This document shows positions 5,826-44,800 of a DNA stretch of 64,000 nucleotides, in pieces. Numbering within the stretch: position 1 is the first letter of the stretch; each line of letters starts with the position of its first letter. A program made the translations under genes and the position numbers. Source of the stretch: Deltaproteobacteria bacterium (GTDB lineage: Bacteria > Desulfobacterota > Binatia > Binatales > Binataceae); contig PMOH01000316.1 of NCBI GenBank assembly GCA_003161515.1, positions 1,210 through 65,209 on the forward strand, given 5' to 3'. The notes beneath the pieces are model-generated. The model did not search any database, was not told the DNA's origin, and saw nothing but the letters and a program-made list of their open reading frames with translations.

Positions 5826-6290
5826 ATGCCGACCGTGAACATCCCGCCTTGGCTGCGAAAACTCAAACAGAGCTGGTGGTTTCAACTGATCGTCCAGCCT
5901 TTCGTAGTCGCGGCGATGCCGGTCTTATATCTGTCGTCGAACGGGTTTGCTGACATCACATCTAACTCCATCAAGGCCGCCGCGATCGCCGGTGGATCGT
6001 CACTCTACTCCGCATACCAGAAGGGCTTTAACGACCCATCGTACAATCCATCGGGGACGGACAATCAGCAAATCGCCGAAGTCGTGAAAGCCGACGCCGC
6101 CAACTCGCCGGTTGCCGTCGTTCCAGTCTCATCGCCGCAAGTGCGCGAGCGGATTCGTGATGTGGTAGACTCGGGCGCTCCCGTGGCCGTGGTGACGCAA
6201 CCGACTCTCGCGCTGAGTGACGCGATGCAAAAAGCGAACGCGGATAGCAGCGTGCCGACAACCGCATCGATAGCGAATAAGCCATCGTGA
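5826..6290 (+). CDS. membrane protein
   Basis: N-terminal transmembrane segment (WWFQLIVQPFVVAAMPVLYL). Function unknown. Confidence 0.4.
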   Translation: MPTVNIPPWLRKLKQSWWFQLIVQPFVVAAMPVLYLSSNGFADITSNSIKAAAIAGGSSLYSAYQKGFNDPSYNPSGTDNQQIAEVVKADAANSPVAVVPVSSPQVRERIRDVVDSGAPVAVVTQPTLALSDAMQKANADSSVPTTASIANKPS

Positions 6291-12064: not shown

Positions 12065-12302
12065 CGATTCCTATACCGGCAAGGCCGCATCGATCGTTCA
12101 AGAGGTCGAAGACATCGCAATTTTATTTGGCTGGTCGTTCGAGCGCCTCTACAACGGATTCTGGCAAAGCCCCCGCGGGCTCGCGGCGGTGCTTCTCGAC
12201 GACGATCAGATCGACTCAATCGACGAAAACTACGCCATCATTCGCCCCAAGCAGGCCGGCGGGAAGACCCTCAAATTCTGGCGTGTGACCAATGGCTACT
12301 GA
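12015..12302 (+). CDS. hypothetical protein
   Basis: 95-aa ORF directly upstream of the terminase and overlapping its start. Confidence 0.3.
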   Translation: MMENMSKAPEAQAMARDDSYTGKAASIVQEVEDIAILFGWSFERLYNGFWQSPRGLAAVLLDDDQIDSIDENYAIIRPKQAGGKTLKFWRVTNGY

Positions 12303-13902
12303 GAGTTTCGAATCACTATCTTCCGCCGAGCAGGAGGTTATTCTGACCCGCGCCTGTCCTGACTATTGGCTCGAAAAGACGACTGGCGAAAAGGCTTGGG
12401 CTAGGCAGGTCGAGGTCATGCAGGCGGTTGCGATGCACCCGCGGGTGGCGGTCGCGTCCGGGAATGGAATTGGGAAAACGTGGCTCGCTGCTCGGTTGGC
12501 GGCCTGGTTCCTAAGCGTCTTCTCCCCTGCGACCGTGGTGACTACCGCGCCGAACATGCGTCAAGTGAAAGACCTCCTCTGGAAAGAAATTCAGGTCGTC
12601 GCTGGCAAGGCCAAAGAGAATGGGCATGATCTTGGCGGCGAACTGTTCACCGCGAGTTGGGAATTTCCCGCGCTCAAGAGAAGGGGCATTAGGCACTACG
12701 GCGTCGGCTTCGCCTCGAAAGAATACGACGTCAACCAATTTCAGGGCTATCACAACTCACACATTTTGGTGATAGAGGATGAGGCCGCCGGCATCAGTGA
12801 GCCGGTCGACGAAGGGATCAACTCGATACTCAAAGGCGCCTTCACCCGCTGGCTGAAAATCGGCAACCCGACCACACTCAAAGGGCCGTTCTTCGGAGCC
12901 TTCAAGAGTAAAGACTGGGTCTGTTATCACATTTCGCAATTCGATACCCCGAACGTAAATGCCGTCCCTCCACCGCGAATATTTGAACAGGATCTCGGCA
13001 CGCGCAAAGAAATCATGGAGCGGTTCCTCGATAGCCTCCTCACGATGCCGATCAGTATCGATGGCGTTGTAACCCCGGCAAATATCAAGAGCGACTTCTA
13101 CAAATGGGGCGAAGATCATCCGCTCTGGCAGGCGCGTGTGCTCGGGCAGTTTCCGGATCGGACGGAGGACACCTTCATCGCGATCTCGTGGGTCGAGCGC
13201 GCCGCGGCGGCGACTCGCAATCTGGAAGGCGCGACTATCGACGTCGGTGTCGACGTCGCGCGCTATGGCAGCGCGAACACGGTCTTTGTCGCGCGCATCG
13301 GCGATCGGCCTGCACAGGGAAACGCATTCGCTTGGGAGAAGTACGGTCAGCAGGGCTTGATGGTTACGTGCGGCCGCATTATCCAGTTTATTTCAAAGAT
13401 CCGTGCCTTTTGGAAGGAAGTGGCCCCCGCGAATCTGCCCTGCCCGCTGATTCGAGTCAAAATCGACGCAGTTGGCCTCGGTGCGGGCGCCTACGATCGC
13501 TGCAAGGAGATCTTCGACGGTGAAGAATGGCGCGTGGATGGCCGACGTACCGTCACGGTCCACGAAATGATCGAGCATCGCACCGCGCGCAATCCCATCC
13601 AATACACCAACGCTACTACCGAATGGTGGGCGCTGACAGCACGAGGCTTCGAAGCCGGGGACATCTCCGGCGAGGTCTTCGCTGACAAAGACCTGATGGA
13701 CGAATTGGTCTCGCGCAAATACGAATACGGGTCCGATGGGAGAATGCGAGCAGAGAGCAAGGAGGCCATGAAGACACGCGGCGAGGCTTCACCGGACTTC
13801 GGCGACGCCGTGGTGATCGCTTACGCAGACATACCAATGAGTTTATTCGATGATGAGGAGCCGTCATCCGGCCTACACGCAGGTCTTGTCTACGGCAGGT
13901 AG
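12292..13902 (+). CDS. terL: terminase large subunit
   Basis: Walker A (GNGIGKTW) and Walker B (ILVIEDEAAG) motifs. The C-terminal half is RNase-H-like nuclease (IDAVGLGAGAYD ... DFGDAVVIA). It lies directly upstream of the portal. Confidence 0.8.
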   Translation: MATESFESLSSAEQEVILTRACPDYWLEKTTGEKAWARQVEVMQAVAMHPRVAVASGNGIGKTWLAARLAAWFLSVFSPATVVTTAPNMRQVKDLLWKEIQVVAGKAKENGHDLGGELFTASWEFPALKRRGIRHYGVGFASKEYDVNQFQGYHNSHILVIEDEAAGISEPVDEGINSILKGAFTRWLKIGNPTTLKGPFFGAFKSKDWVCYHISQFDTPNVNAVPPPRIFEQDLGTRKEIMERFLDSLLTMPISIDGVVTPANIKSDFYKWGEDHPLWQARVLGQFPDRTEDTFIAISWVERAAAATRNLEGATIDVGVDVARYGSANTVFVARIGDRPAQGNAFAWEKYGQQGLMVTCGRIIQFISKIRAFWKEVAPANLPCPLIRVKIDAVGLGAGAYDRCKEIFDGEEWRVDGRRTVTVHEMIEHRTARNPIQYTNATTEWWALTARGFEAGDISGEVFADKDLMDELVSRKYEYGSDGRMRAESKEAMKTRGEASPDFGDAVVIAYADIPMSLFDDEEPSSGLHAGLVYGR

Positions 13903-21073: not shown

Positions 21074-21337
21074 GGTTTGACAAGCGTTCGGTAAAGGCAT
21101 AGTTGCACCAAGCAGAGAGCCTGAGATAGCGGCGGAGCGGCTGGCGGCAGATCCAAAGGCGACTCCCAAACTATTTCGCCGGATGAAGAGCTGGCAGATC
21201 CAAGCGCAGACCGGCAAGAACCTGGGGCGGGTAGGGAACGGCGCGAAGCGGTCCCCCCGGAAAAAGCGGAAGATCCGATGACCGTGGAAAGTTGGTAAGA
21301 ACGTCACAACTTTTTACGGAGACGGAGTTCTCGCAAA

Positions 21338-22708
21338 ATGTCGAGCCCAGGCACTTTCGTAAATTTCCCGCCGCAACTCCTTGGGATGTTGCAGCAAAAT
21401 TTCCTCGATCGCGAACTCGAGGAAGGTCTCGATTCCTATCTGGCCTACCGGCGCGAAGCGGTCCAGGAGACTATCCCAGCGCGGATCGGCGCGACCCTCA
21501 CTATGACCAGAAAGGGGCGTAAGACCCCGATCACGCAACCGCTCGATCCGACCCAGGTCGGCACCAACCTCGACAATGGGATGACGCCCTCGACGTTCTC
21601 CATCGAGCAGTACAGCTTCTCGATGAAGGAATGGGCGGATACCGTCGATACCGATTTGATGGGCGAATTGGCGGGCATAGCCAATCAGCTTATCGCCAAC
21701 TCGCGGAACAACGGCGTCCAAGCCGCGCAGTCGATGGAGCGCATCGCGCGTAATGATTTGTTCGCCGCATACATGAGCGGCAACTCGCGCGTCCTCGCCG
21801 TCAACTCGCAGACGTCGATCCAGGTCGACGATATCCGCGGCTTCGGCACGGTCCTCGTAAACGGCACACCGCAGGGTGTGAGCTCGGCGACTCCGTTGGC
21901 GATCACCGAATACAACGATTCCGGAACTTTGGCGACGGCCACGCAGGCGCTCAACGTCACGGGCGTCGCCCCGGACGCGACGAACGTGAGCTCCACCAGC
22001 ATCACCGGTGGGCTGTCGGGAGTGCTGACCTTGGCGGCCGGCGCGGCCAATACGATCCAGGTGGGCGACTCGGTCATCTCGAACAATGCCCCCAAGGTGT
22101 TCCGGCCGTTCGGCAAACGCCTGACGAGTTTGCTAAATGGCGCCGACGTTCTCACCATGTCGATCGTCGATGATGTCCGGGCCTATCTGCTGGATAACGG
22201 CGTTCCGCCGATGCCCGATGGCACCTATCACATGATTTTGGATAACACCTCGATGCGTCAGTTGAGGGCCGATCAGGACTTCAAAGTCCTGTTCGCAGGG
22301 CGCGAGGAGACTCCGGAGTTTCGCGGCGGCGATATCGTGCGCCTGCTTGGCATAACTTTCATCCCCACCACGGAAACCTTTGTCCAAAATCCCGGCTCCG
22401 GCGTTGGGGTGCGAGTACGCCGGCCGATCATCATGGGGGCCGAGAGCTTGATGCAGGGTAACTTCGAAGGGCTGGACATCTGGCTCAATCGAGAGGGCGT
22501 CAATCCGATCGGCGAGATCATGCTGATCGATAACGTCGCTCAGATTGTGAGGCCACCGCTCGATCGCCTGCAGCGCAACATCGCGCAGACCTGGACTTGG
22601 ATCGGAGACTTCGCGGTCCCGACCGACGTCACCGCCACCACAGACACTATCCCCACCGCTAGTAACTCCTTGTTCAAACGCGCAGCGGTGATTGAGATAG
22701 CTGGCTGA
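21338..22708 (+). CDS. major capsid protein candidate
   Basis: 456 aa, the largest head-module ORF, downstream of the scaffold. No signal peptide. The call rests on size and position only. Confidence 0.45.
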   Translation: MSSPGTFVNFPPQLLGMLQQNFLDRELEEGLDSYLAYRREAVQETIPARIGATLTMTRKGRKTPITQPLDPTQVGTNLDNGMTPSTFSIEQYSFSMKEWADTVDTDLMGELAGIANQLIANSRNNGVQAAQSMERIARNDLFAAYMSGNSRVLAVNSQTSIQVDDIRGFGTVLVNGTPQGVSSATPLAITEYNDSGTLATATQALNVTGVAPDATNVSSTSITGGLSGVLTLAAGAANTIQVGDSVISNNAPKVFRPFGKRLTSLLNGADVLTMSIVDDVRAYLLDNGVPPMPDGTYHMILDNTSMRQLRADQDFKVLFAGREETPEFRGGDIVRLLGITFIPTTETFVQNPGSGVGVRVRRPIIMGAESLMQGNFEGLDIWLNREGVNPIGEIMLIDNVAQIVRPPLDRLQRNIAQTWTWIGDFAVPTDVTATTDTIPTASNSLFKRAAVIEIAG

Positions 22709-27083: not shown

Positions 27084-29006
27084 ATGGGTCAGATCATTGT
27101 TAATGGTGGGAGCTTCAACGCGGCTGGTCTGCAGGCCGACGATCTCTACATTCAGATTATTCCGCCGCCTGCGTCGGTTGTGGGCGTGCCGGTCGACGTC
27201 GTCGGAGTAGTGGGAACCGCGTCGTGGGGACCGCTCAACGCGCCGACGTTACTCGGGACTCCGGGCGACGGTGCTCGAAACTTCGGACCCATCCCGGTCT
27301 GGGGCAGCGGAACGATCGACCTGCACGATTTGGCGACTGAAATCGTGATGCTCTTCCAGCAGGCGCCATCCCAGGCGCAGCTCCAAGTTTGGGCCTCGCG
27401 TATCAGCGATGGTACTGACGCCCCGGCATTCGGATCAGTCATGGACGGCGAGGGTACTCCGGTGGCCGGCGGCGTTGTCGAGGCGCTCTACAGCGGTATC
27501 GCAGGCGACCAACTCTCGTTGACGATCTCTCCGGGAGCCTTGGCCAATACCTTCAACGTCGTTATCGGCGGTTTCCCCGGCGTGCCGGCGGAGCTGTTCC
27601 CGAACATCCCGAACTCAGCGGGAAGCTTTTGGCAGAACCTCGCGAATGCGCTCGCGCTGGGCCAGTCCGGTATCCGGCCGCCTTCTCAATTCGCGCGCTT
27701 CATTCCAGGAACGCCGACGGAGGTTCCCACGGAGGCGCCCACCCTTTCGCCGGCGCCAGACGGAACGCATACGCAGTTCACCTTCACTCTCGCGAATGGT
27801 CCCGTGCAGCAGGGAACTCTCATTCTGACCGATAGTCACGGAGTGATCTTCGCTGACTCTGAGGGCAACGGCACGCTACAGGGCGTCGGCGGGACCGGAA
27901 CTGTCAACTATGTGACCAAGCAAGTCGCGCTGACCTACTCGGTCGCTCCGATAACCGCTACCACGATGGCGGCGGATTACGACTACATGGTGGCCAATAC
28001 CCACGCTCCGGTGGCCGGCTCGACGCCTCTCGCAAACGGCGCCGACGGGCGCGCCGGTGTGAACACGGCCGCTTTGCTCGGCAGCGACGCATCGCTTCCG
28101 AAAACTGGTCTGTATGCGTTGCGCAGCCTCAATCCCGCGCCAAGCATGGCTTACCTCGCCGGCATGACGGATGGGACGATCGTCTCGAATCTTCAGGGCT
28201 TCGCCGACAGCGAGGGCGTTGCGATGGCGTTCGCCTTCCCGACCGGAACCTCGAGCCAAGCGGCGGTCACCGCGAAGCAGGGCTACGGCATCCTCGACTT
28301 CGAGATGCTTTGGTTGAAGGACTGGATCTATTGGTACGACCCGGTGAACCAGCAGGTCCGGCTCGTGCCGCCCTATTCCACGATTCTCGGCCGCACCGCG
28401 ACTCTGCCGCCATACGTCTCGCCCGGAAACAAGCAAGTCTTCGGGATTATCGGGACCGAGCGGAACAGTCCGTACAGCGGGAACATTCCTTATTCGAACG
28501 CTGAGATTGGGCTCCTAGAGTCGGCCGGCATCCTGTTCGTAACGAACCCCATTCCGGCGGGACAACAGTGGGGCATCCGTCATGGGCAGAACGGAAATCC
28601 CGTGCCGCCGGCTGATGACGTTGCGTACACCCGGATGACGAATATGCTGGCGCAGTTGATGAACCGCATCCTTGGCCAGTTCGTCGATCAGCCGCAGAGT
28701 CAATCGCCGAAGGATCCTACCCGCGATGCGATGAAGACGATTTCGAATGCCGAGCTCCAGTCCCTCCAAGACCTCGGGATGATCGATACGCAGGATATGA
28801 ATGGAGGACCTGGCTACCTGGTCGTCTGCGATCTGACAAACAATACGCCGGCCCAGATCGCCGCGCGCTACTCTTCCATCGCCTGGAGAGTGGTTTACCT
28901 GAGTAACATCCGATTCCTGATCGGTTCGCTTCAGGGCGGTACGACGGTGGTCACGCAGGGTAACAGCCAGTCGCAAGCGCTGGCGGGACAGGGACTCTCG
29001 GTCTAG
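27084..29006 (+). CDS. contractile tail sheath protein
   Basis: 640 aa, directly upstream of a 163-aa tube-sized ORF. This is the canonical sheath-tube pair. Confidence 0.65.
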   Translation: MGQIIVNGGSFNAAGLQADDLYIQIIPPPASVVGVPVDVVGVVGTASWGPLNAPTLLGTPGDGARNFGPIPVWGSGTIDLHDLATEIVMLFQQAPSQAQLQVWASRISDGTDAPAFGSVMDGEGTPVAGGVVEALYSGIAGDQLSLTISPGALANTFNVVIGGFPGVPAELFPNIPNSAGSFWQNLANALALGQSGIRPPSQFARFIPGTPTEVPTEAPTLSPAPDGTHTQFTFTLANGPVQQGTLILTDSHGVIFADSEGNGTLQGVGGTGTVNYVTKQVALTYSVAPITATTMAADYDYMVANTHAPVAGSTPLANGADGRAGVNTAALLGSDASLPKTGLYALRSLNPAPSMAYLAGMTDGTIVSNLQGFADSEGVAMAFAFPTGTSSQAAVTAKQGYGILDFEMLWLKDWIYWYDPVNQQVRLVPPYSTILGRTATLPPYVSPGNKQVFGIIGTERNSPYSGNIPYSNAEIGLLESAGILFVTNPIPAGQQWGIRHGQNGNPVPPADDVAYTRMTNMLAQLMNRILGQFVDQPQSQSPKDPTRDAMKTISNAELQSLQDLGMIDTQDMNGGPGYLVVCDLTNNTPAQIAARYSSIAWRVVYLSNIRFLIGSLQGGTTVVTQGNSQSQALAGQGLSV

Positions 29007-29016
29007 GAGAACAAAC

Positions 29017-29508
29017 GTGGGATTCCAACTTAACGGTTACAACCTGGGCACGGACGTTTCGATGACGCTGCAGCACGTCGAGAGTGGCGTCGTGCTGCCG
29101 GCGGCGTTGCTGGGCCACCTGATGGAATTCCAGTTCGATCAGGAAGACCAAGTCATTCGCGTCGTGCCGATTACGAACGGCGGAAAGCCGCTGTACAACG
29201 TGGTCTACATGGGTTGGCGCGGGCACGCGATGTTCACCCGAGTCAACGGCGCCCTGACCGCGATCTTGGCGGCGACCGAGAAAGATTACTTCGACAACGG
29301 CCACCTCAATCACTTCAACATGCTGGCCACCGTGCTGAATCGCGACTCGACGGTGGATCAGTATATGTTCACCGCCGGTGTTCTGAGTCGGCATCAGGGC
29401 GGCAACTTCCGCGCGGACAAGGAAGTCGATCAGCGGATCGAGTTTAATTTCCAGCGGATGGTGCTGACGGCCGGGTACGCGGCGCTGCTTCCGATCGCGG
29501 CGGGATAA
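29017..29508 (+). CDS. tail tube protein
   Basis: 163 aa between the sheath and the chaperone/tape-measure genes. Confidence 0.55.
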   Translation: MGFQLNGYNLGTDVSMTLQHVESGVVLPAALLGHLMEFQFDQEDQVIRVVPITNGGKPLYNVVYMGWRGHAMFTRVNGALTAILAATEKDYFDNGHLNHFNMLATVLNRDSTVDQYMFTAGVLSRHQGGNFRADKEVDQRIEFNFQRMVLTAGYAALLPIAAG

Positions 29509-29562: not shown

Positions 29563-30111
29563 ATGCCTGAAGAGACCAAACCGCCAGAGGAAGCATCTGG
29601 ACCCGGACCTATCCGGCGCCAAGTGCGCGAGGTAGATCCCGCGCGCGCGTCGAGGCAGCCGAACTTCCAGGACGCACAAGCCCAATCGGACGCTGTTGCC
29701 GATACGTTGCGCAAGGCAGCCGGAGGCGGGTTCGAACGCCCCGACTCACAGAACGGCGCGGCTTTCATTCCGAACGCAACAGGGGAGCGACCGTTTGTGC
29801 AGCTCCAACTTCCCGACGGTCGGACGTTGACCCTAGCCCAACCCGAGGTCGCCGTCGGCTTCATCCTCGGTCGAATTCTCGGACCCCAAGAGTCGAGCAA
29901 CCCACTCTCAGTTGGCTATGCGAAGGCCCTCATGTACGTCGCCGAGATCGATGGGCAGCCGGTCAGACGCCCGACCAATATGGCCGAGTTGCAGAATCTC
30001 TCGAACGTGATAGGTGATCGCAACCTAGATCTTGTATCGATGGAGTTCGCTCGATACTGGCCGCAGATGACCGAACTCACGGTCCTAAAAAAAAATGGGG
30101 TCGTCGGATGA
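29563..30111 (+). CDS. tail assembly chaperone
   Basis: Lies between the tube and tape-measure genes. A poly-A9 slippery run (30087-30095) sits in its last codons, with an overlapping extension ORF. Confidence 0.45.
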   Translation: MPEETKPPEEASGPGPIRRQVREVDPARASRQPNFQDAQAQSDAVADTLRKAAGGGFERPDSQNGAAFIPNATGERPFVQLQLPDGRTLTLAQPEVAVGFILGRILGPQESSNPLSVGYAKALMYVAEIDGQPVRRPTNMAELQNLSNVIGDRNLDLVSMEFARYWPQMTELTVLKKNGVVG

Positions 30112-30304
30112 CGTCCGCGAGATCGTGGCGGCGGTTAAGCACGGCCTCAGTTATTACGATGCCGTGAGGATGCATCCCAGTGAACGGCAGGCATTTCTTT
30201 ACGTGGCAGCGGAGATGGACGGGATGCGTGTCAACTGGGAAACCGGCGAAATCAGCGAGCCGCAGCAGCCGGGACGAGATCCGCGCGTGGCTGGGCGGGA
30301 GTAG
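30095..30304 (+). CDS. tail assembly chaperone extension ORF (frameshift or slippage product)
   Basis: 69-aa ORF in the +1 frame relative to the upstream gene. It starts within the A9 run. This is the classic two-ORF chaperone architecture. Confidence 0.35.
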   Translation: MGSSDDVREIVAAVKHGLSYYDAVRMHPSERQAFLYVAAEMDGMRVNWETGEISEPQQPGRDPRVAGRE

Positions 30305-30307
30305 GCG

Positions 30308-30922
30308 ATGCGCGACTTCGATAGTTTTGAAGCCTTCGGCGCGTTCTGGGAATTTGCGGTCATACCCGGCTACTTGCTCGCCATGCACGCGGCGCTCGAT
30401 GAATGCGGCGCCGCCGTCAAAGAACGCATCCAAGAGAAGATAGGCGTCTCCCAAGGTCCGAGCCACGGCTACCCCGGCTGGGCTCCGCTCGCCGATACGA
30501 CCCTGCATGGATGGGGACCGAACCCCGGAAAGATAGCTCTCGGTCAGACCGGGCGGCGCAGCGGCGAAGATCCGCTCATGGCAACCGGGAAATCGCGCGA
30601 CGAAATCGAGTATGTCGTTCATCGCAACGATCTCGCGGTCACGATCGGCAGTAACAGCGACGGCCTTTTCTACGCGGAGTTCGGGACCGTGAACGAACCG
30701 CCGCGACCAACCTTTCGGCCAGCAGCAGAAGAGATCGTCGAAGAGGTCATGCTCGCGCGCATCGGCGAATTCGCCGTCGCGGGCATCACCGGCATAGGAA
30801 TCAGAACGCTCTACACCTCGGCTCAACTGTCTAATTTCGGCACTGGTCGCGAATACGTGAATACTTCGCGCGCGAGCTTCCGCGGATTCGCGCGCGGGAT
30901 GGGCATGAGGAGTCGATTTTAG
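30308..30922 (+). CDS. hypothetical tail-module protein
   Basis: 204-aa ORF between the chaperone and the tape measure. Confidence 0.35.
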   Translation: MRDFDSFEAFGAFWEFAVIPGYLLAMHAALDECGAAVKERIQEKIGVSQGPSHGYPGWAPLADTTLHGWGPNPGKIALGQTGRRSGEDPLMATGKSRDEIEYVVHRNDLAVTIGSNSDGLFYAEFGTVNEPPRPTFRPAAEEIVEEVMLARIGEFAVAGITGIGIRTLYTSAQLSNFGTGREYVNTSRASFRGFARGMGMRSRF

Positions 30923-33025
30923 ATGGCTGGTTTCTCCGGATTTAAGGTCGGTATCTCGATTTTCCTGCTGGATCAGGCAAGTCGCGGGTTGATGGGAATC
31001 ACCCGCTCGATCGCGAGCGCAACCGGGGCGAGCAGAGCTTTGCGCGCCGAGCTCGCCGGCATTCAGACTTCGATGCGGATCGGGATGGGTATGACCATGA
31101 TCGGCGGCGCTGGACTTGGGCTGATCGGAAAGGCAGTCAAGGACGCTGCCGAATTCCAGATCAACATGGTGCGCGTCGCGAATATGTTCAAGCTCTCGAC
31201 CGATCAGGCGCGCCTATTCAAAAACGAGCTATTCGAGATCTCGCACCGCACGATGTTCTCCGCGGAAAACATCCAAGACGTAGCGCTCGGCATGAAGAAT
31301 GTCGGTATTAACTTCGAGAACATCAGCAAGTTGCTGCCGCAATTCAGCGCCGCTGCGGAAATCTTATTCAGAGTCAGCAAGGGCGGCGTGTCGCCGCAGC
31401 AAACCGGACAAGTCCTGGGCGAATTCGCGCATACCTTGGGGGTCTACGATCCGAAAGGGCTGGCGCGGCTGAGTAACGTGCTGGTCAACGCCGCGCAACT
31501 CATACCAGGAGGAGCGCAGGGACTCATCACACAGCTCGGCTATCTCCGTCCAGCGCAGCTTATGGGGATTCCTCCGGGTAATCTCACTCCGCAACAAACA
31601 GAGGAGTTCCAGGTCCGCGGCGGAATCAAAATGGTTGAACTGTCCGCGCTGGCGCAGCAGATCGTCGGCGGCAGAGGTTCGGGCGCCAGAGGTCCGGCTT
31701 CTGGCGCGGCGATGCTCAATTTCCTAATGGGTGCCGCTGGCGTAGGTACAACTCTGACGGGTTTTGGATTCATTCAGAATCAACTCGGTCGAGCAGCGCT
31801 CGGATTTCTCGATCCTGCGACCGGAAAATCCCCGGCGATGGCAAGCGGCGCCCTCGATATTTGGAAGGAGGTACAGACAGCACAGGCGGCATTCAATCAG
31901 GCCCGGACACTCCAAGGTCAGCAGCAGATGGTACGGCGAATGGTCCAGGAGATGAGTCATGCGCACATGACTCTCCGTCAGGTCACCACGATTATGAATG
32001 CGCCGATGATCAAGGGAGTGCTGGCAGGACAGGTGCAAAACCCCGGCGCGTTAGTAGATATGTTCGAGAAGTTCATCGGTGGGCAGACCGGGATGCGTTT
32101 TGCTGCGACAGTGTCCGCGCCCGGCACCGTCACTGCGATGCAGAATCTCGTCAAGTCCATCGAGGGCGGCGCCAGCATCGCCGAGCAGCAGCAGAAGTTT
32201 CTCGACACCCTGCCCGGTCGTTGGGCCCAGCTCACGACCGATATTCACAATGTATCGATCGAGATCGGGACAACGCTGCTACCCATCCTTACGCGGTGGG
32301 TGGTGAGCATCGACAGCGTCGTCGAAAAGTTTCGGATTTGGATCGAGGCGCATCCGGTTGCTACGAAGCGGCTAACAGAGTTGGCGGCCGCCATCTCCGG
32401 ACTTACACTCGCCGGCGGAGTAGCGATTTCCCTTTTGGCAGTTGGCCGTGCGCTCCGGATCATAGCGGGGATAGGAGGTTTCGGGTCGATCGCTGGCGCG
32501 ATCGTAACGGCGCTTACAGGACCAACGGCTCTCATAATCGGTGGCGCAATCGCGGCGGGGTTCATCGCCTGGATGATAACCAAGTGGACCGGTCTAGGAG
32601 GTCCCGACGATCCGCTTGCTAAGCTGCATCGTGACGCCGAGAAGGATCGTCCGAAGACGATGAGTGAATGGTGGCGCCGTATGGTTGGGCCATCGACGCC
32701 TATTCCCGGTGCCTTCAAAGACAGCCCTGAATACGAAGAGTGGCGGAAGCGAATTCATCCGTTTGGCACACCGGCGCCGGTGCCAGCGCATAAGAGTCCG
32801 TCGGCATATTTCGGTCGGCCGTTCGGTGGCGGCATCGAGCCCGCGATGGCAACAGGTGGCGTCACGATCGCACCTGGCGCGATCCATATCGAAGTTCACG
32901 GCGACATCGCCGGCGACTCGACGATCGAGAAGCTCCGGCGCGAGCTGCACGCGGCGCTGCTCTCGTTCGGCAGCGGCGGGGGCGTTACCGAATCTACATT
33001 CGCTCATGGAGCGGCGTCGATCTAA
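30923..33025 (+). CDS. tail tape measure protein
   Basis: 700 aa, predicted to be helical. It has a central hydrophobic/TM-like segment (AAAISGLTLAGGVAISLLAVG ... IIGGAIAAGFIAWMI) and sits downstream of the chaperone. Confidence 0.65.
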   Translation: MAGFSGFKVGISIFLLDQASRGLMGITRSIASATGASRALRAELAGIQTSMRIGMGMTMIGGAGLGLIGKAVKDAAEFQINMVRVANMFKLSTDQARLFKNELFEISHRTMFSAENIQDVALGMKNVGINFENISKLLPQFSAAAEILFRVSKGGVSPQQTGQVLGEFAHTLGVYDPKGLARLSNVLVNAAQLIPGGAQGLITQLGYLRPAQLMGIPPGNLTPQQTEEFQVRGGIKMVELSALAQQIVGGRGSGARGPASGAAMLNFLMGAAGVGTTLTGFGFIQNQLGRAALGFLDPATGKSPAMASGALDIWKEVQTAQAAFNQARTLQGQQQMVRRMVQEMSHAHMTLRQVTTIMNAPMIKGVLAGQVQNPGALVDMFEKFIGGQTGMRFAATVSAPGTVTAMQNLVKSIEGGASIAEQQQKFLDTLPGRWAQLTTDIHNVSIEIGTTLLPILTRWVVSIDSVVEKFRIWIEAHPVATKRLTELAAAISGLTLAGGVAISLLAVGRALRIIAGIGGFGSIAGAIVTALTGPTALIIGGAIAAGFIAWMITKWTGLGGPDDPLAKLHRDAEKDRPKTMSEWWRRMVGPSTPIPGAFKDSPEYEEWRKRIHPFGTPAPVPAHKSPSAYFGRPFGGGIEPAMATGGVTIAPGAIHIEVHGDIAGDSTIEKLRRELHAALLSFGSGGGVTESTFAHGAASI

Positions 33026-34006
33026 ATGGGCGCGATACCCATACTGACGAACTTAGGGACGGCCGTCATCGGAAATGCGGCGCGCCTTCTTTTCGGTGGA
33101 CCCCAACCGCTCGACTTCTTCATCGGGACGTCGACCGCCAACCCCGAGATCGTATTCGGCGACGGGAGCAATCTCCGCGGCAACGTCGGGATGGAGATCC
33201 CGGAAGAGTTCGATGGTTTGGGAGGCACCCAGATGTTCGCCGGCCACGACTTCCCCGGCGGTGTCAGGACACTCCAGCAGATGGGGGCCTTTCCCGAGAC
33301 GCTCAAGTGGAAGGGGACCCTGATAGGCGGTCAGGCTTTCGCGCGCGCGGCATCCATGGACCGTCTACGCATCAATGCCGCTGGAACTTTGCTCTTCCTC
33401 AACTATGGTCCGTGGCAGTGGCAGGGCTTACTGATTCGATTCAAAGGCCGGGTGCGCCATCAATGGTTGATCGAATACGAGGCCGAATTCGAACCGTTCA
33501 TCGACCTGACGAACACCAACCAAGTGATTGCCGCCCAGGGCTCTCAGAGCTTGCTCACCGAACTGATGAACAGTCTGAGCACGTTCGTCGGCAACACGAC
33601 CGGACTCTCGGCTGACGTACTCAGCGAGATCAGCTTAGTAATCGCGTCGATTGGTTCCGCTGGATTGGCAGCAGATCCATCGTTGGTATCGAATGCGATC
33701 GACGCTGTGACGGGATCTGATAGCGCCGTGTTCGCACAAGCGAAGAGTCCTAACCCGGCGGATGCCGCGCTGGTCGGAGACGTGCTTTCTAAACTTCTGC
33801 TCCTGGCGCAACTCTACCCGGTGGCCCCGCCGATCAAGACTCAAATCAATCGCATCAATCCGAATCTGCCGGCGTTGGCGGCCGAGCAGCTTGGGGATCA
33901 GAAGCAATGGCCAGCGATCGCAGCGGCGAACGGTCTCTTGGAGACGATGCCCAAGGGGGTGTTCGTACATCTCAACATTCCCCAAGCGGTGAGCGGGGGA
34001 GGATGA
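33026..34006 (+). CDS. tail/baseplate protein
   Basis: 326 aa, directly after the tape measure (ATGA overlap). Confidence 0.4.
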   Translation: MGAIPILTNLGTAVIGNAARLLFGGPQPLDFFIGTSTANPEIVFGDGSNLRGNVGMEIPEEFDGLGGTQMFAGHDFPGGVRTLQQMGAFPETLKWKGTLIGGQAFARAASMDRLRINAAGTLLFLNYGPWQWQGLLIRFKGRVRHQWLIEYEAEFEPFIDLTNTNQVIAAQGSQSLLTELMNSLSTFVGNTTGLSADVLSEISLVIASIGSAGLAADPSLVSNAIDAVTGSDSAVFAQAKSPNPADAALVGDVLSKLLLLAQLYPVAPPIKTQINRINPNLPALAAEQLGDQKQWPAIAAANGLLETMPKGVFVHLNIPQAVSGGG

Positions 34007-34013
34007 AAGGAGC

Positions 34014-34211
34014 ATGGCAATGCCGGAAGACACTAAATATACGGAATTGGCGAAGTGGCATCCTGAAGCCAAGGCAGTGATCGAATCGCGAATAAACGCT
34101 GCCGACTTCGGAAGTGAGAACATCGACAAGATAATCACAATCGCAGCGGATCTCCTTCTAGATAATGAAATTCTGGCCATAGCTTGTGGCCAAAAAAAAC
34201 AGAATGCCTAA
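34014..34211 (+). CDS. small tail-module protein
   Basis: 65 aa. It ends in a poly-A8 run (34192-34199) that overlaps the next gene. Confidence 0.25.
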   Translation: MAMPEDTKYTELAKWHPEAKAVIESRINAADFGSENIDKIITIAADLLLDNEILAIACGQKKQNA

Positions 34212-39910: not shown

Positions 39911-41844
39911 TGAACCGACCCTTAATATATACCGGCGAGATCATACGAACTTTCGACATAGCCTCGGCGTGGCGCGACGCACTCGAAGCCCTCGCTCAAC
40001 TAACCGAGGACTTGCTCGGCGGTTCTACGTCCGTAGCCGCCGGACTCGCAGCGACGCAGCAATCGCCGGAAAGCCTGAGCATCAACATCGCGCCGGGGTC
40101 TTTGTATCTTCTCACAACCGTCGATCCGACCGCCGCGGGCGCGCTGCCCGCGTCGGCGGATATCGCGATGGTGCAGGGTATTCTCGCCGCACAGACGGCT
40201 TTGCTGCTGAGCACATCAGGTCTTGGCGCCGGGCAGAATCGCTACGCGCTAATCGAAGCGACTGTAGTTTTCAACGACGGCGTTCGCGTCGGGGATCCTT
40301 CGGGCGGCGTATTGCCCTTCTACAATTCTCAAAACCCGGCACAGCCCCTTCAGGGACAAGGCGGATCGGGCGGCGTGCTCAATACCGAGCGGTTCGCGAT
40401 AGTCCAATTTCAGATCAATTATGGGGCTCCCGCAGCGACCGGATCGGAAGCACCCCCGAATCCCGATACCAACTATGTGCCTCTATTCTTGATTGATCTG
40501 ACCTTCGGGCAAACCCAGATCAGTCAGGGTGAGATTTTGGTCGCGGGCCCGAGCGTCGGTACGGGTGTACCGAACAATTATCCACAGGCTCCGTTTTTGG
40601 CAGGCTTACTCAACTCTCATCATGGAGGTCTGGCCGGGCAGGCTCCGCAGGTGCGCCTCGCGGCTGCTGGCGGAAATCCTCAAGAAGTCCAAGGAATTCT
40701 TCCGCTGGCCAATCTGCCGGTGACGAACACAGTCGGTGGGGCCGTGATCCCCGTTATCAGAGTGGGAGCTGCGACACCTTCAGGGAATGTCGCGGGCAAC
40801 ACAAACGATCTCTATTGGTCGACGGGATCCGGCAGTCTTTACGTTTGCACCGCCAGCGGAACGGCGTCGACCGCAGTCTGGACAATCGCGGTGACGGTGG
40901 CTGGCGCCGCCCCTACGGGCGCGGCCGGCGGTGCCTTGAATGGCTCGTTTCCGAACCCTGGTATTATCAAAGTCCCCGATGGCGCTGGCGGCGGAGGCGT
41001 GACAGTTGATCCGGCGACGGCCGCAGCGGCAGGAAAGGTTATTCAGGCTTCTAGCTCGAGCGCGGCCGCATGGGCGACGCTTCCGACGCCAAACGCCTTG
41101 GCGGGCGCGCTGAACCTTCGCGGCGACCCCGATGGAAGCAATCCGACGACTACCTTTGATATCACCGCCGACCAGTTGATCTTGCGGGTTCCTGGAACGG
41201 GATTGGCGATCTTAATCACGGCCTTCGCCGCGAATGTCATAATCAATGGCTCGCAGTCCGGATCGCAGGCCAACGGCCGAGATCAAGCCGGGAATTTCAG
41301 CGCGAATACTTTCGTGCATCTGTACGCGATCGGCGGAAATGCGAACACCCCCGCGCTGCTCCTGAGCAACACGGCTCCGCCGACCGGTCCGACCTTGCCG
41401 GGAACTTACTCGGCATGGACGTTTCTCGGGACTTTCCGGCTCGGAGGGACCGGGTTCTTCACGGCGCAGCGATTGCGCGGTTCGAAGATCTACTATGATG
41501 CGCAACAGACGACACCTCTTGTAGCCGGGACGGCGACCACCGAAACCAGCGAGTCGATCAGCTCTCAGGTTCCAGCGATAGCGCTGAGAGCCACGCTGAA
41601 TCTGTTCGGCGCCGCCGCCCCCGGCTCCGGCATCGACGTTTGGGCTTCGATTCGAATCTCAAGCGGCAATGAGTTCTTCCGCTTCGCCTTCAGGGAGGTT
41701 GTTTCGGTGGTTTCGGAGCTAAGCGCGCAGATCGACATACCTAATGTGGGGCAAGCGTTTTTGTATCTGTGGAATACTGGAACCGGGAGTCCCGCCTTGA
41801 CTGCATGGGTGGGTGGCTACGAGGTGCCGAATGGATCGCACTAA
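39886..41844 (+). CDS. tail fibre protein
   Basis: 652 aa, Gly/Ala/Thr-rich beta-type composition, after the baseplate genes. Confidence 0.5.
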   Translation: MGSGGGSLVNRPLIYTGEIIRTFDIASAWRDALEALAQLTEDLLGGSTSVAAGLAATQQSPESLSINIAPGSLYLLTTVDPTAAGALPASADIAMVQGILAAQTALLLSTSGLGAGQNRYALIEATVVFNDGVRVGDPSGGVLPFYNSQNPAQPLQGQGGSGGVLNTERFAIVQFQINYGAPAATGSEAPPNPDTNYVPLFLIDLTFGQTQISQGEILVAGPSVGTGVPNNYPQAPFLAGLLNSHHGGLAGQAPQVRLAAAGGNPQEVQGILPLANLPVTNTVGGAVIPVIRVGAATPSGNVAGNTNDLYWSTGSGSLYVCTASGTASTAVWTIAVTVAGAAPTGAAGGALNGSFPNPGIIKVPDGAGGGGVTVDPATAAAAGKVIQASSSSAAAWATLPTPNALAGALNLRGDPDGSNPTTTFDITADQLILRVPGTGLAILITAFAANVIINGSQSGSQANGRDQAGNFSANTFVHLYAIGGNANTPALLLSNTAPPTGPTLPGTYSAWTFLGTFRLGGTGFFTAQRLRGSKIYYDAQQTTPLVAGTATTETSESISSQVPAIALRATLNLFGAAAPGSGIDVWASIRISSGNEFFRFAFREVVSVVSELSAQIDIPNVGQAFLYLWNTGTGSPALTAWVGGYEVPNGSH

Positions 41845-44800
41845 GCTGGGCACGAGGATACTCTTCGCGGTCGTGATGCTGCTGATGCTGGCCAGCAGCG
41901 CGCGCGCGGACGTGGGCATCTTCCGTCGGAACAACTGCCAGAGCGGTCCGGACGCAGTGACGGCTCCTGTCAACGATCAGACGTGGTGCTTCGACTCGGC
42001 GACCGACAGCCTGTTGCTCTACACTGGAAACGCGTGGGTCAAACAGACCGGGGCAAGTGCCCTCGGCAGTCTCGCAGGAGACACCACCGGGCCGGCAGGC
42101 GCGAACATCACCCATCAGTGGCACCGCACGACCGTCTTGGTGACGACGGCGATGTCCCCCTACACGCAGCTTAGCACCGACTCCTATATAGACTGCCTGC
42201 CAAACACGGGGGCCGTAACTATCAATCTGTTAGTGACCTCCGATGTCGGGAACCCCACCGGGAACGTCCTGACGGTCAAGAACCAACTTCCAGCGAGTGC
42301 GGCCTGCAACATCGTTCCTCACGCTGGAGATACCATCGATGGTGCGTCGGGCACTTATGCCGTCACCAGCCCGCAACCGCTAAATCTTCACAATGCGAAT
42401 ATCGCTGGAACAGGTTCGTGGGAACGATGGTCGGGAATTCTCCCCGGCACGACCTGCGTAAATCAGTTCGCGAGCGCGATCGACACCACGGGAACGTTGA
42501 CGTGCTCGAGCGTCAATTTGTCCAACTCGGTAACCGGAACCCTGCCGAACGCCAATGGTGGAAGCGGCACCGTCTATGGAGCGCCCGCGTATTTCTCCCA
42601 GATTTCCAATGCGGGCGGCGCGATCGGCACGACCGCCAACAAGCTCGCCAAAGTGACCGGTAATCCCTCGACGGCCCTTATTTCAACCGCGGGCGATACG
42701 TCTGGCGCGTTGGGCATCGTTACCGCCGGCGCTGGCATCGGTGGAACGGCCACGATTCAGATGTCGGGCCTCACCAATTGCGTATTCGATAATTCGACCT
42801 TGGCGGGCGACTATGTGGCTATCAGCCCGAGCGTCGCGGGGGATTGCCACGACGCCGGAGCTTCTTTCCCGACCAGCGGTCAAGTCCTGGGGCGCGTGCT
42901 ATCGACCAACGGCTCGGCGGGCACCTATCAGATGTTCCTGTTTGCGGCCGAGCAACAAGGATCGTCGGCGTCTAGCAGCGGGACTGTCACCAGCGTCGGC
43001 GTGTCGGTTGCGTCAGTGCCGGAGATCGCGGTGTCGGGCGGACCCATCACCGGCGCGGGGACATTCACCTTTACGAAGAACTCCGAGAGCGCGAATACGT
43101 TCGCCGGTGGCCCTGCCAGTGGTGGTGCGACGGCATGGGCTTTCCGCCTCCTGGTAGGTGCGGACCTTCCGAATCCTTCGAGTACCAGCTTGGGCGGTAT
43201 TCAAAGCATCGTCGCGCAGACTCACAAATGGATCAATTCGATCTCGACCTTGGGCGTGCCGAATCTCGTGCAGCCTGCGTGCGCTGACCTCTCGGATTCG
43301 AGTCCATCGTGTTCGACCGATACCACGAACGCGGCGAATATCAGCTCGGGAACTTTGGCGGCAGCGCGGCTTCCGAATCCCTCGGCCACGACGATCGGCG
43401 GAGTCGAGAGCGAAGTAAATTCAGCGCACTTCTTTCTGACTGGCATCACGACGCTCGGTGTTGTATCGAATGCCCAGCCTGACTTCAGCGATCTCACGGG
43501 CACAGCGACCGACGCTCAACTCGCGAATGGCTATTCCGGGACAGGCGCGTGCGCCGCGCATAAGTGGGCGAGCACGCTCAATCGCAACGCGATCCAGACC
43601 TGCACGCAGCCGGACGCGAGCGACATCACCAGCCTGGTCGCGTCCGCGACGACGGACACAACCAACGCATCCAACATATCGAGCGGGACTCTTGCGCAGG
43701 CGCGACTTTCCGCCGGCTATGCAGCGCCGACGGCACATTCGTTTATCATTGGGCAAGGAACAAGCGCCCCGACAGCGTTGAATTGCGCGAGCGGCACCTT
43801 CGCGTATGGGCAGGGAGCGAGCGTGGACCCGATATGCCATACGCTCGGTGCGGCTGACATCAGCGGGGCATTCGGAAGTCAGACGGCGAATACGTTTTAC
43901 TCGGCACCGAACGGAAGCTCGGGAACGCCAAACTTTCGCACGATCGCTGGTGCGGACCTTCCTAATCCCTCCGCGAGTTTGCTCGGTGGCACCGAGAGCA
44001 AGGCGAGCGCGGCGCATTTCTTTCTCACCGGCATTTCGACATCGGGCGTACCCTCTTCAGCGCAACCTGATTTCACAGATCTAACTGGTGGTGCTACCGC
44101 CGCACAAATCTTAACCGCGCTCGCATCTCCACCGCCTGAGGGCACCGGCACGCCGAACACAGGTATCTTCAGTCCGTTCAAAGGTTCTGGGAACGGCGCA
44201 ACTATAGATACTACGGTTGCGAATCCATTTATAGGCGGGATTAGCGGAGTGCGCGCCAATGAGAAGAGCGTGGATGCTTTTGGTGCACCGACTGGTACAA
44301 CCGGAACCTCACTTACTTTGAATGGCACAACGACCTTGACTATGGCGGGCGGAGTGCCTGCCACTTGGCTCCCTAATACTTATTTTGCAATTCCTAAGGG
44401 TGGCCCTGCGCCTATGGTAAACACTCCGAGTGTCACCACCAACGGCACCACAACCGCAATTCTGATGCAACTTACCGGCGATAATACCGGCGGAGGAACC
44501 AACGCTGCTCGCGTCAAGGCAGGTTGCGCCACGCCAATAGTTAAGGTGTATTGCCCAGGAGGCAGCACAACTTGCACAGTGACTAACCAGAGTGATTTTG
44601 AAGATCCGTCCATAGTGGGGGGTGCTAAATCTTGCATCGACATCGCAGGCCAGACCGTAGGTGGTTCAACTCACTGCGCAGGAGGGACGGGGACCACTTT
44701 CCAGGTTGTCGCTATAAGTGGTTCGGATTCGATTATTCTCGACGTTGCACCAACTTCAACAAGTGCTGCGGCAGTGACGTTCAATGCCCCAACCGCTTGC

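What the first reader, a model, noticed from the sequence alone, without database searches (positions are those of the whole stretch)
29563..30304. Poly-A9 slippery run at the tail-chaperone ORF junction, in the +1 rather than -1 frame
Nine consecutive A's (30087-30095) occupy the last Lys codons of the 182-aa chaperone ORF. The 69-aa extension ORF starts inside the run. It is in the +1 frame (coordinate mod 3 goes from 1 to 2). The -1 frame dead-ends after about 26 codons. This is the canonical tube / chaperone G / GT / tape-measure position, but the geometry favours transcriptional slippage on the A9 run, or +1 frameshifting, rather than the usual -1 ribosomal frameshift.
Basis: seen in the sequence. 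Interest (0 to 1): 0.55.

Follow-up and report, generated by a model that had tools for sequence, protein, structure and literature searches.

The report
Conserved poly-A frame-switch in tail chaperone
A run of nine A's at the end of a phage tail-chaperone gene is a conserved programmed frame-switch site that joins the chaperone to a small downstream domain in the +1 frame, most likely because RNA polymerase (rather than, or as well as, the ribosome) slips on it.

Summary
A9 lies at 30087-30095, at the end of a 182-aa ORF between the tube and tape-measure genes. The 69-aa ORF is in the +1 frame. The -1 frame closes after 24 codons.

Comparative data support a programmed shift:
- The ORF belongs to a large, unannotated chaperone-like family (146 representatives at 50% identity).
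- Its most conserved feature is a C-terminal [L/V/I]-K-K.
- In 15 diverged lineages (G proteins mostly 20-35% identical) the junction reads xxA AAA AAA AAT, with 13 A9 and 2 A8, and a conserved T domain in the +1 frame.
- In most lineages that domain has no ATG, GTG or TTG.
- The fifth-prime wobble A is kept in 13 of 15 lineages against a 6-22% background.
- Relatives use ribosomal-type -1 sites instead (A7, A8, C CCT TTG), and one encodes G and T in a single ORF.
- One close pair (55% identity) keeps the same A9 but has T in opposite frames.

The mechanism cannot be settled computationally. I favour RNA-polymerase slippage that loses one A, as shown for the A9 of IS1447, at about 0.5. A ribosomal -2 or +1 shift, as in phage Mu, is about 0.35.

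This is a new variant of a known kind, of moderate to good interest.

The parts
27084..29006 (+). tail sheath gene (context)
   Evidence: phrog_23 tail sheath, E = 4.7e-33.
29017..29508 (+). tube-like gene (context)
   Evidence: Lies directly after the sheath gene. Matches phrog_12993, E = 3e-17. The same gene precedes G in L002, L063 and L064.
29563..30111 (+). G: 182-aa chaperone-like ORF (zero frame)
   Evidence: 146 family representatives. The family ends at an invariant [LVI]-K-K. AF2 models the core, residues 75-168, at pLDDT 73-89. The top PDB fold hit is the HK97 tail assembly chaperone 2OB9, which is weak at E = 0.23. There is no Pfam hit.
30069..30084 (+). small hairpin GACCG-aactca-CGGTC ending 2 nt before the run (doubtful relevance)
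   Evidence: Folding dG is -6.8 kcal/mol, empirical p = 0.10. An upstream-hairpin signal in the first 8 lineages (Fisher p = 4e-4) did not replicate in 7 new lineages (p = 0.7).
30086..30088 (+). TAA stop in the +1 frame that bounds the shift window on the 5' side
   Evidence: Read from the sequence. The same TAA is present in all A9 members.
30087..30095 (+). A9 slip site (register xxA AAA AAA AAT)
   Evidence: Conserved as A9 in 13 of 15 +1-class lineages and as A8 in the other 2. All Lys codons are AAA, and the wobble A is kept in 13 of 15 lineages against a 6-22% background, binomial P about 9e-11.
30089..30304 (+). T: +1-frame extension domain (ORF69 = 30095-30304); fused G-T product about 246 aa
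   Evidence: The T-domain HMM hits the +1 frame of every +1-class locus, E from 1e-6 to 1e-32. Substitutions between the window, L002 and L003 concentrate at codon position 3 of this frame, 35-37 against 15-18. A natural single-ORF G-T protein exists, P0140/L079.
30093..30167 (+). -1 frame dead end (24 codons, then TGA)
   Evidence: This frame is not conserved in relatives.
30308..30922 (+). 204-aa gene between T and the tape measure (tail-completion-like)
   Evidence: Weak matches to phrog_222 and phrog_5, tail completion/Neck1. It is 31% identical, E = 4e-11, to the L081 homologue, which has a weak Pfam Phage_tail_S hit. It sits at the same position in L003, L064, L078 and Raharianne.
30923..33025 (+). 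tape measure protein gene (context)
   Evidence: phrog_28, E = 1.3e-20, and seven other tape-measure PHROGs.

Best explanation
ORF182 and ORF69 are the G and T parts of a tail-assembly-chaperone pair of a contractile-tailed phage.

Normal decoding gives G (182 aa). A minority of product is a roughly 246-aa G-T fusion. It is made by a programmed change into the +1 frame inside the A9 run (30087-30095). Decoding resumes at A-T-G, the last A of the run.

The existence of this programmed frame change is well supported (about 0.9).

For the mechanism I commit to transcriptional realignment as the main route. The host RNA polymerase slips on the 9-bp rA:dT hybrid, and a fraction of the mRNAs carry A8. 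These read ...L-K-K-M-G-S-S... A11 transcripts would give the same frame. A10 transcripts give a harmless G with a 24-aa tail. Ribosomal slippage on the same run may contribute.

What is shown:
- the anatomy,
- conservation of the run at the nucleotide level,
- coding constraint on the +1 frame,
- absence of start codons in relatives.

What is inferred:
- that the fusion is made,
- its function as a chaperone,
- that the polymerase rather than the ribosome does the slipping.
For: 1. Conserved junction. In 15 lineages whose G proteins are mostly 20-35% identical, the junction is xxA AAA AAA AAT, with a homologous T domain in the +1 frame.

2. No start codon. T has no ATG, GTG or TTG in most lineages, and gene callers leave a gap there.

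3. Nucleotide-level selection.
- All 30 Lys codons are AAA, although AAA is 0-71% of Lys codons in these contigs.
- The 5'-most A is the wobble base of a Leu, Val or Ile codon. It is kept in 13 of 15 lineages against 6-22% expected, P about 9e-11.
- A simple +1 slip, or a Lys/Asn -2 slip, does not need that base.
- It completes a 9-nt homopolymer, which is the hybrid length and the known threshold for efficient bacterial RNA-polymerase slippage (PMC5009743, PMC1088944).

4. Precedent. In IS1447, a subgroup of a family that otherwise uses -1 ribosomal frameshifting has an A9 and +1 geometry. Of 52 cDNA clones, 9 were A8 and 8 were A10 (PMC6211511).

5. Frame swap at an unchanged run. L161 (+1) and L190 (-1) are 55% identical in G and keep the same A9 in the same register, with T in opposite frames. 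That swap would be nearly neutral if A8 and A10 transcripts are similarly frequent.

6. Downstream structure.
- The +1 class has no consistent downstream stimulatory structure (Fisher p = 0.13).
- Two -1-class relatives have very strong ones: Raharianne z = -5 to -6, and L071 p = 0.001.

7. Fusion as product. A natural in-frame G-T protein (P0140/L079) shows the fusion is a functional product.
Against: - No transcript or protein data exist.
- All experimentally characterised tail-chaperone shifts are ribosomal (lambda, HK97, P2, and Mu at -2).
- Other members of this very family use heptamers that only make sense for ribosomes (C CCT TTG in L071 and L081; A AAA AAA with a strong 3' structure in Raharianne).
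- An A run is also highly slippery for tRNA-Lys.
- The upstream hairpin that would have pointed to hairpin-stimulated loss of a nucleotide did not replicate.
- Two +1 lineages manage with A8.
- The identification of G as a tail assembly chaperone rests on gene position, architecture and a weak fold match only.
Confidence: 0.5

Rival explanations
1. The same G-T fusion is made, but by the ribosome. There are three possible routes:
(a) a tandem -2 slip with tRNA-Lys in the P site (AAA 30091-93 to 30089-91) and tRNA-Asn in the A site (AAU to AAA), giving ...KKN-MGSS;
(b) a +1 slip of tRNA-Lys (AAA A), giving ...KK-MGSS;
(c) two successive -1 slips on A AAA AAA, giving ...KKK-MGSS.
For: - Phage Mu tail chaperone genes use a -2 shift at GG GGG CGA (PMC3458567, citing Xu 2004).
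- Relatives in this family use canonical -1 heptamers.
- The wobble A, kept in 13 of 15 lineages, is what a backward slip of the first tRNA-Lys would need.
- Several members have a small hairpin about 10 nt after the run, for example CCCTG-atttc-CAGGG in L036, L133, L106 and L127.
- AGGTG lies 3 nt before the first AAA in L063, L064 and L066.
Against: - There is no consistent or strong 3' stimulator in the +1 class.
- The A-site codon AAU is neither rare nor a stop, and the zero-frame stop is 1-9 codons away. This is unlike prfB-type +1 sites.
- A +1 slip needs only 4 A's, yet no +1 member has fewer than 8.
- The Shine-Dalgarno-like AGGTG is absent from the window.
- A9 is expected to make RNA polymerase slip in any case.
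Confidence: 0.35
2. In this particular phage ORF69 is translated on its own from ATG 30095, by independent initiation or by termination-reinitiation after the G stop. No fusion is made.
For: The window and L036 do have an ATG at the last A of the run. Gene callers call it as a 69-aa protein.
Against: - There is no Shine-Dalgarno-like sequence in the 20 nt upstream (ACTCACGGTCCTAAAAAAAA).
- Most relatives have ATC or ATA and no start codon.
- This reading does not explain the nucleotide-level conservation of the run.
- A single-ORF G-T protein exists.
Confidence: 0.05
3. The frame break is not programmed. It is a homopolymer sequencing or assembly error, a pseudogene, or DNA-level phase variation by replication slippage.
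For: Homopolymers are error-prone and hypermutable. A8 in the A9 register would put G and T in one frame.
Against: - The same break is seen in 15 independent lineages from JGI, ENA, Logan and IMG/VR assemblies.
- The two A8 members have A8 in a register that still gives +1.
- The T frame is under purifying selection.
- Replication slippage is far too rare to supply the fusion in every infected cell.
Confidence: 0.04

Closest known systems
Lambda G/GT-type tail assembly chaperone frameshift (Xu, Hendrix and Duda 2004; P2 E/E+E' in contractile phages)
   Same: Two overlapping ORFs sit between the tube gene and the tape-measure gene. The downstream ORF has no initiation signals of its own. There is a slippery sequence in a very short overlap. 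The expected products are a short abundant protein and a rare C-terminally extended one.
   Different: The direction is +1 (equivalent to -2) rather than -1. The site is an 8-9 nt homopolymer rather than an X XXY YYZ heptamer. There is no sequence membership in any Pfam chaperone family. One extra gene lies between T and the tape measure.
Phage Mu tail chaperone genes, -2 ribosomal frameshift at GG GGG CGA (PMC3458567, citing Xu 2004 and Baranov 2006)
   Same: A myovirus, with the T part in the +1/-2 frame relative to G. The homopolymer-rich site allows re-pairing two bases back.
   Different: The motif differs (G run plus CGA against A9 plus T). No homology was tested or claimed. Here polymerase slippage is an equally good or better candidate.
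IS1447 (IS3 family) transposase OrfAB: A9 run with +1 transcriptional slippage (PMC6211511)
   Same: It is a subgroup of a family that otherwise uses -1 ribosomal frameshifting on A-rich heptamers. It has an A9 at the end of the upstream ORF, with the downstream ORF in +1. A8 transcripts give the fusion, and A10 transcripts are a by-product.
   Different: It is a transposase, not a virion-assembly protein. Its slippage is experimentally shown, whereas here it is inferred. IS1447 has a stem-loop before the run, and here such a hairpin is not general.
Thermus thermophilus dnaX A9, and other programmed transcriptional realignment sites (Shigella mxiE T9, Citrobacter tssM poly-A; PMC5009743, PMC1088944, PMC4256274)
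   Same: A conserved run of about 9 A or T inside a coding region sets the ratio of two products.
   Different: In dnaX the slipped transcripts give the shorter product and mostly carry added A's. Here the slipped transcript must give the longer product and needs minus 1 or plus 2 A.

Membership tests
G/GT-type tail assembly chaperone with programmed frameshift | Pair of overlapping ORFs located between the major tail or tube gene and the tape-measure gene | tested here: met
   The order is sheath, tube-like gene, ORF182, ORF69, ORF204, tape measure. The same order is seen in L002, L003, L063, L064, L078, L081 and Raharianne. One extra gene, ORF204, lies before the tape measure.
G/GT-type tail assembly chaperone with programmed frameshift | Downstream ORF lacks its own start and is reachable only by a frame change within a short overlap containing a slippery sequence | tested here: met
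   There is no ATG, GTG or TTG in the T frame of most relatives. The overlap is bounded by TAA (30086-88) and the G stop (30109-11), and contains only the A run.
G/GT-type tail assembly chaperone with programmed frameshift | -1 direction on an X XXY YYZ heptamer | tested here: not met
   T is in the +1 frame and the -1 frame closes after 24 codons. Relatives L006, L056, L078, L071 and L081 do meet this feature.
G/GT-type tail assembly chaperone with programmed frameshift | G has the fold or sequence of known tail assembly chaperones | tested here: inconclusive
   There is no Pfam or PDB sequence match. The AF2 core is moderately confident. The top PDB fold hit is 2OB9, the HK97 tail assembly chaperone, but at E = 0.23 and TM 0.42. 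BFVD hits include proteins named tail assembly chaperone at E = 0.08-0.6.
G/GT-type tail assembly chaperone with programmed frameshift | Both G and GT are made, in a set ratio, and both are needed for tail assembly | not testable with these tools
   Needs protein detection and genetics.
Programmed transcriptional realignment at A/T runs | Homopolymer of about 8-9 or more A or T at the ORF junction, conserved among diverged homologues | tested here: met
   13 lineages have A9 and 2 have A8, at 20-35% protein identity. It is conserved against codon bias.
Programmed transcriptional realignment at A/T runs | Heterogeneous run length in transcripts but not in DNA | not testable with these tools
   No transcript data are available here.
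Programmed transcriptional realignment at A/T runs | Nascent-RNA stem-loop just upstream (hairpin-stimulated subclass: Roseiflexus IS630, IS1447) | tested here: inconclusive
   The signal in the first 8 lineages (Fisher p = 4e-4 at a 24-nt window) was not replicated in 7 new lineages (p = 0.7).
Mu-type -2 ribosomal frameshift | Motif allowing P- and A-site tRNAs to re-pair two bases upstream | tested here: met
   Read from the sequence. The Lys codon AAA (30091-93) re-pairs with AAA (30089-91). The Asn codon AAU (30094-96) re-pairs with AAA (30092-94) at 2 of 3 positions. This shows compatibility only, not evidence of use.
Mu-type -2 ribosomal frameshift | Stimulatory element at an appropriate spacing | tested here: inconclusive
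   Downstream folding in the +1 class is not different from control windows (Fisher p = 0.13). Positions of first pairing range from +1 to +17.
prfB-type +1 ribosomal frameshift | Stop or hungry codon in the A site and a Shine-Dalgarno-like sequence 3 nt upstream of the shift codon | tested here: not met
   The A-site codon is AAU, which is 45% of Asn codons in the window. The zero-frame stop is 5 codons downstream. There is no Shine-Dalgarno-like sequence in the window. AGGTG is present only in some relatives.

The most novel reading that the evidence does not exclude
A virion-assembly stoichiometry (chaperone G against G-T) is set by host RNA-polymerase slippage on a conserved A9 rather than by the ribosome. 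This happens within one homologous chaperone family in which ribosomal -1 heptamers (C CCT TTG, A7 plus structure), A9 sites feeding the +1 frame, an A9 site feeding the -1 frame, and an in-frame fusion all interchange during evolution. That would be the first programmed transcriptional realignment described for phage tail chaperone genes. It would also be a natural series for comparing the two recoding mechanisms.
Probability: 0.45. Interest if true: 0.72.

Novelty: new variant of a known kind. Interest (0 to 1): 0.6.

Why it matters
- **Annotation.** Tail-chaperone frameshifting is a textbook case of -1 ribosomal recoding. Here a large and so far unannotated chaperone family (146 clusters at 50% identity, no Pfam model) most often uses an 8-9 A run with the extension in the +1 frame. 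Gene callers miss that extension almost everywhere, including the -1 version in the cultured Ralstonia phages Raharianne, Hyacinthe and Albius.
- **Mechanism.** If the polymerase does the slipping, an assembly ratio would depend on transcription conditions (NTP pools, which polymerase is used) rather than on translation.
- **Testability.** The three candidate mechanisms predict different junction peptides (KK-M, KKK-M, KKN-M), so one mass-spectrometry experiment can separate them.
- **Prediction tools.** The family gives frameshift predictors a motif for 'forward' chaperone shifts, for which no general motif is known (PMC10885494).

Tried and rejected
- **Sequence libraries.** Pfam, NCBI-independent PHROG names, PDB sequence search and Rfam gave nothing for G, T or the junction.
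- **Cultured phages.** blastn of the region against cultured phages found no match. tblastn with the fused product found only the Ralstonia Rahariannevirus group. Two other family members found nothing.
- **Locus searches.** The search for related loci with the close alignment only re-found the same JGI contig.
- **Word-indexed protein search.** It returned few members. The exhaustive representative search was what revealed the family.
- **Upstream hairpin.** I hypothesised a stimulator of nucleotide loss. It looked significant in the first 8 lineages but failed in an independent set of 7, so I do not rely on it.
- **Downstream structure.** It is not different from control windows in the +1 class.
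- **-1 frame as the real extension.** Rejected: it is short, not conserved, and has no HMM match.
- **Second A8 run at 34192-34199 as a second slip site.** Rejected. It lies in a 212-bp insertion that is absent from the 99.7%-identical contig L001 and sits just upstream of the probable real start of the next gene.
- **Promoter.** No promoter-like site lies between G and T.

Full report
**1. The observation**

The run and the ORFs are as described.
- Window 30087-30095 is A9, flanked by T on both sides.
- ORF182 (29563-30111) ends CTA AAA AAA AAT GGG GTC GTC GGA TGA.
- ORF69 (30095-30304) is in the +1 frame, and its ATG uses the last A of the run.
- The +1 frame carries TAA at 30086-88, so the only stretch in which a shift can join the two frames is 30089-30111.
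- The -1 frame closes after 24 codons, with TGA at 30165-67.
- An A9 somewhere in a window of this composition is not remarkable in itself: 0.22 are expected, and 19 of 100 shuffles had at least one.

The surrounding genes show a contractile-tailed phage:
- large terminase at 12292-13902 and major head protein at 21338-22708;
- sheath at 27084-29006 and a tube-like gene at 29017-29508;
- ORF182 and ORF69, then a 204-aa tail-completion-like gene;
- tape measure at 30923-33025, followed by baseplate genes.

**2. A large, unannotated family**

Pfam, PDB sequence search and Rfam give nothing for ORF182, ORF69 or the junction. An exhaustive phmmer search of the fused product against 1.84 billion cluster representatives found 146 proteins.
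- Nearly all G-type hits end 0-6 residues after the position aligned to Lys177.
- In an alignment of 27 members with 30% mean identity, Lys177 and Leu172 are the only invariant columns.
- Sorting the C-termini of the representatives gives KKN... in 57, mostly KKNLRG or KKNLR. KK-stop occurs in 15, KKS in 10, KKT in 7 and KKY in 5. Another 34 have no KK, for example ...LPLSG.
- T-domain hits are only short 47-69-aa ORFs. They are called where an ATG happens to be present.

**3. The DNA junctions**

I obtained DNA for 21 independent lineages.

*+1 class, 15 lineages*
- A9 members: the window (identical in JGI contig L001), L002, L003, L036, L063, L066, L148, L133, L106, L181, L179, L161 and L127.
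- A8 members: L029 (CTT AAA AAA AAT) and L064 (ATT AAA AAA AAT).
- All read xx(A/T) AAA AAA AAT in the G frame.
- In all, the T frame resumes with the last A of the run as ATN (Ile or Met).
- The frequent zero-frame tail NLRG is simply the out-of-frame reading of the conserved T start I-C-E-D.
- Most of these T frames have no ATG, GTG or TTG. Gene callers left a gap there.

*-1 class*
- Ralstonia phage Raharianne (L006) and L056: GTA AAA AAA TCG, an A7.
- L078: GTA AAA AAA ACA, an A8.
- L071 (a Chloroflexi MAG) and L081: C CCT TTG.
- L190: an A9 in the same register as the +1 class, but with T in the -1 frame.

*In-frame*
- P0140/L079 encodes G and T in a single ORF.

**4. Evidence that the run and the +1 frame are under selection**

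- The G proteins of the +1 class are mostly only 20-35% identical, yet the run is kept.
- All Lys codons in the run are AAA, although AAA is 0-71% of Lys codons in these contigs.
- The wobble base of the preceding Leu, Val or Ile codon is A in 13 of 15 lineages. The background is 6-22%. The binomial P is 9e-11 at p = 0.12 and 2e-7 at p = 0.22.
- Differences between the window, L002 and L003 in the T region fall at codon position 3 of the +1 frame (35-37, against 15-18 at positions 1 and 2).
- An HMM of the T domain hits the shifted frame in every locus, including loci not used to build it.

I conclude with high confidence that a programmed change into the +1 frame at the A run produces a G-T fusion.

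**5. Is G a tail assembly chaperone?**

- Gene position and the two-frame architecture fit.
- Sequence libraries do not recognise it.
- An AlphaFold model from a shallow alignment has a moderately confident core (residues 75-168, pLDDT 73-89).
- Its best PDB fold match is the HK97 tail assembly chaperone 2OB9, but only at E = 0.23 and TM 0.42.
- In BFVD, several proteins named tail assembly chaperone appear at weak scores. The only strong hit is an unnamed phage protein.
- I treat fold membership as suggestive, not shown.

**6. Mechanism**

Three routes reach the +1 frame:
- RNA polymerase slippage, through loss of one A or gain of two;
- a ribosomal -2 slip;
- a ribosomal +1 slip.

*Literature*
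- Runs of 9 A or T slip efficiently in bacterial transcription and are selected against in coding regions (PMC5009743, PMC1088944).
- IS1447 belongs to a family that otherwise uses -1 ribosomal frameshifting. It has an A9 and +1 geometry. It yields 9 of 52 A8 and 8 of 52 A10 cDNA clones, and only A8 gives the transposase (PMC6211511).
- Phage Mu tail chaperone genes use a ribosomal -2 shift (PMC3458567).
- 'Forward' chaperone shifts are annotated in 350 actinophage genes (PMC10274946).
- Three text searches found no paper proposing polymerase slippage for tail chaperone genes.

*Arguments from the sequences for the polymerase*
- The run is 9 in 13 of 15 lineages and never shorter than 8. A +1 tRNA slip needs only 4 A's.
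- The selected 5'-most A is irrelevant to a +1 slip or to a Lys/Asn -2 slip.
- The +1 class has no consistent 3' structure (Fisher p = 0.13 against local control windows).
- By contrast, Raharianne (z about -5 to -6) and L071 (p = 0.001) have strong structures at a suitable spacing.
- L161 and L190 are 55% identical in G and keep the same A9, with T in opposite frames. This is easy if A8 and A10 transcripts are about equally common. It is harder if -1 and -2/+1 ribosomal events differ greatly in efficiency.

*Arguments against the polymerase*
- Every characterised chaperone shift is ribosomal.
- This family clearly uses ribosomal heptamers elsewhere.
- tRNA-Lys is notoriously shifty on A runs.
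- Two lineages work with A8.
- A backward slip of the first tRNA-Lys would also need the 5' wobble A.

*A hypothesis that failed*
- I tested whether a hairpin just upstream of the run stimulates loss of a nucleotide, as in the Roseiflexus IS630 and IS1447 cases.
- It looked significant in the first eight lineages (Fisher p = 4e-4 with a 24-nt window).
- It failed in seven new lineages (p = 0.7). I do not count it.

*Weights*
- Polymerase slippage as the main route: 0.5.
- Ribosomal -2 or +1 shift: 0.35.
- Independent initiation in this phage: 0.05.
- Artefact, pseudogene or phase variation: 0.04.

**7. Novelty and verdict**

- The G/GT logic is known, and +1/-2 geometry has precedents (Mu, actinophages, HSTV-2).
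- New here is a large unrecognised chaperone family whose dominant junction is a conserved A8-9 run feeding the +1 frame. Ribosomal-type -1 sites, an A9 feeding -1, and an in-frame fusion occur as evolutionary alternatives.
- This is a new variant of a known kind.
- It is directly testable, because the competing mechanisms predict different junction peptides and different transcript populations.
- Interest: 0.6.

Noticed in passing
window 33993-34204 (ORF65 at 34014-34211; A8 at 34192-34199): The window carries a 212-bp segment with a 65-aa ORF that ends in an A8 run. In the otherwise 99.7%-identical JGI contig (L001) this segment is replaced by 7 nt. The A8 lies just upstream of the probable true start (ATG 34204) of the 414-aa gene. 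It looks like a small accessory-gene indel, not a second slip site.
   Followed up: yes
L006 = Ralstonia phage Raharianne MT740745, record 21229-21773 (also Hyacinthe MT740743 and Albius MT740726): These are cultured relatives. The G homologue is annotated as a hypothetical protein and is followed by an unannotated 167-nt gap. The gap encodes the T domain in the -1 frame after GTA AAA AAA TCG, with a very stable downstream structure (-41 kcal/mol, z about -5). The frameshift product is missing from the GenBank annotation.
   Followed up: partly
L161 (IMGVR_UViG_3300044... locus, run at 9682-9690 on the minus strand) and L190 (run at 5892-5900): These two relatives are 55% identical in G and keep the same A9 in the same register, but their T domains are in opposite frames (+1 against -1). 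The cause is an indel at the start of T. This is a natural frame swap at an unchanged slip site.
   Followed up: partly
L079/L080 (Logan SRR12350688 and SRR12350684), gene 2009-2539 of L079 = P0140: This family member has the G and T domains in one continuous 176-aa ORF, with no K-K motif and no A run. It is a constitutive fusion. How it supplies a G-only product, if it needs one, is unknown.
   Followed up: partly
window 30308-30922: A 204-aa gene always sits between T and the tape measure in this family. It shows weak similarity to tail completion/Neck1 PHROGs. It is 31% identical to the L081 homologue, which has a weak Pfam Phage_tail_S (P2 gpS) hit. That is an unusual place for such a gene.
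   Followed up: partly
P0099 (249 aa, no locus fetched): This family representative has two tandem copies of the G core and no T domain.
   Followed up: no
L036, L133, L106, L127, L181: about 10 nt after the run: A small hairpin is formed by the Pro and Arg/Gln codons of the conserved D-P-D-F-R/Q-E start of T. CCT pairs with AGG or CAGG, and in L181 CCG pairs with CGG, which looks compensatory. It is too small and too few cases to call, and overall downstream folding is not significant.
   Followed up: partly
window 3742-3829: A tRNA-Ser (anticodon TGA) gene lies near the left end of the window, inside a mechanically listed 375-aa ORF (3058-4185).
   Followed up: no
window 41813-47005: A 1730-aa ORF downstream of the baseplate genes has no PHROG match at E <= 1e-5. 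By position it is presumably a tail fibre or host-recognition protein.
   Followed up: no
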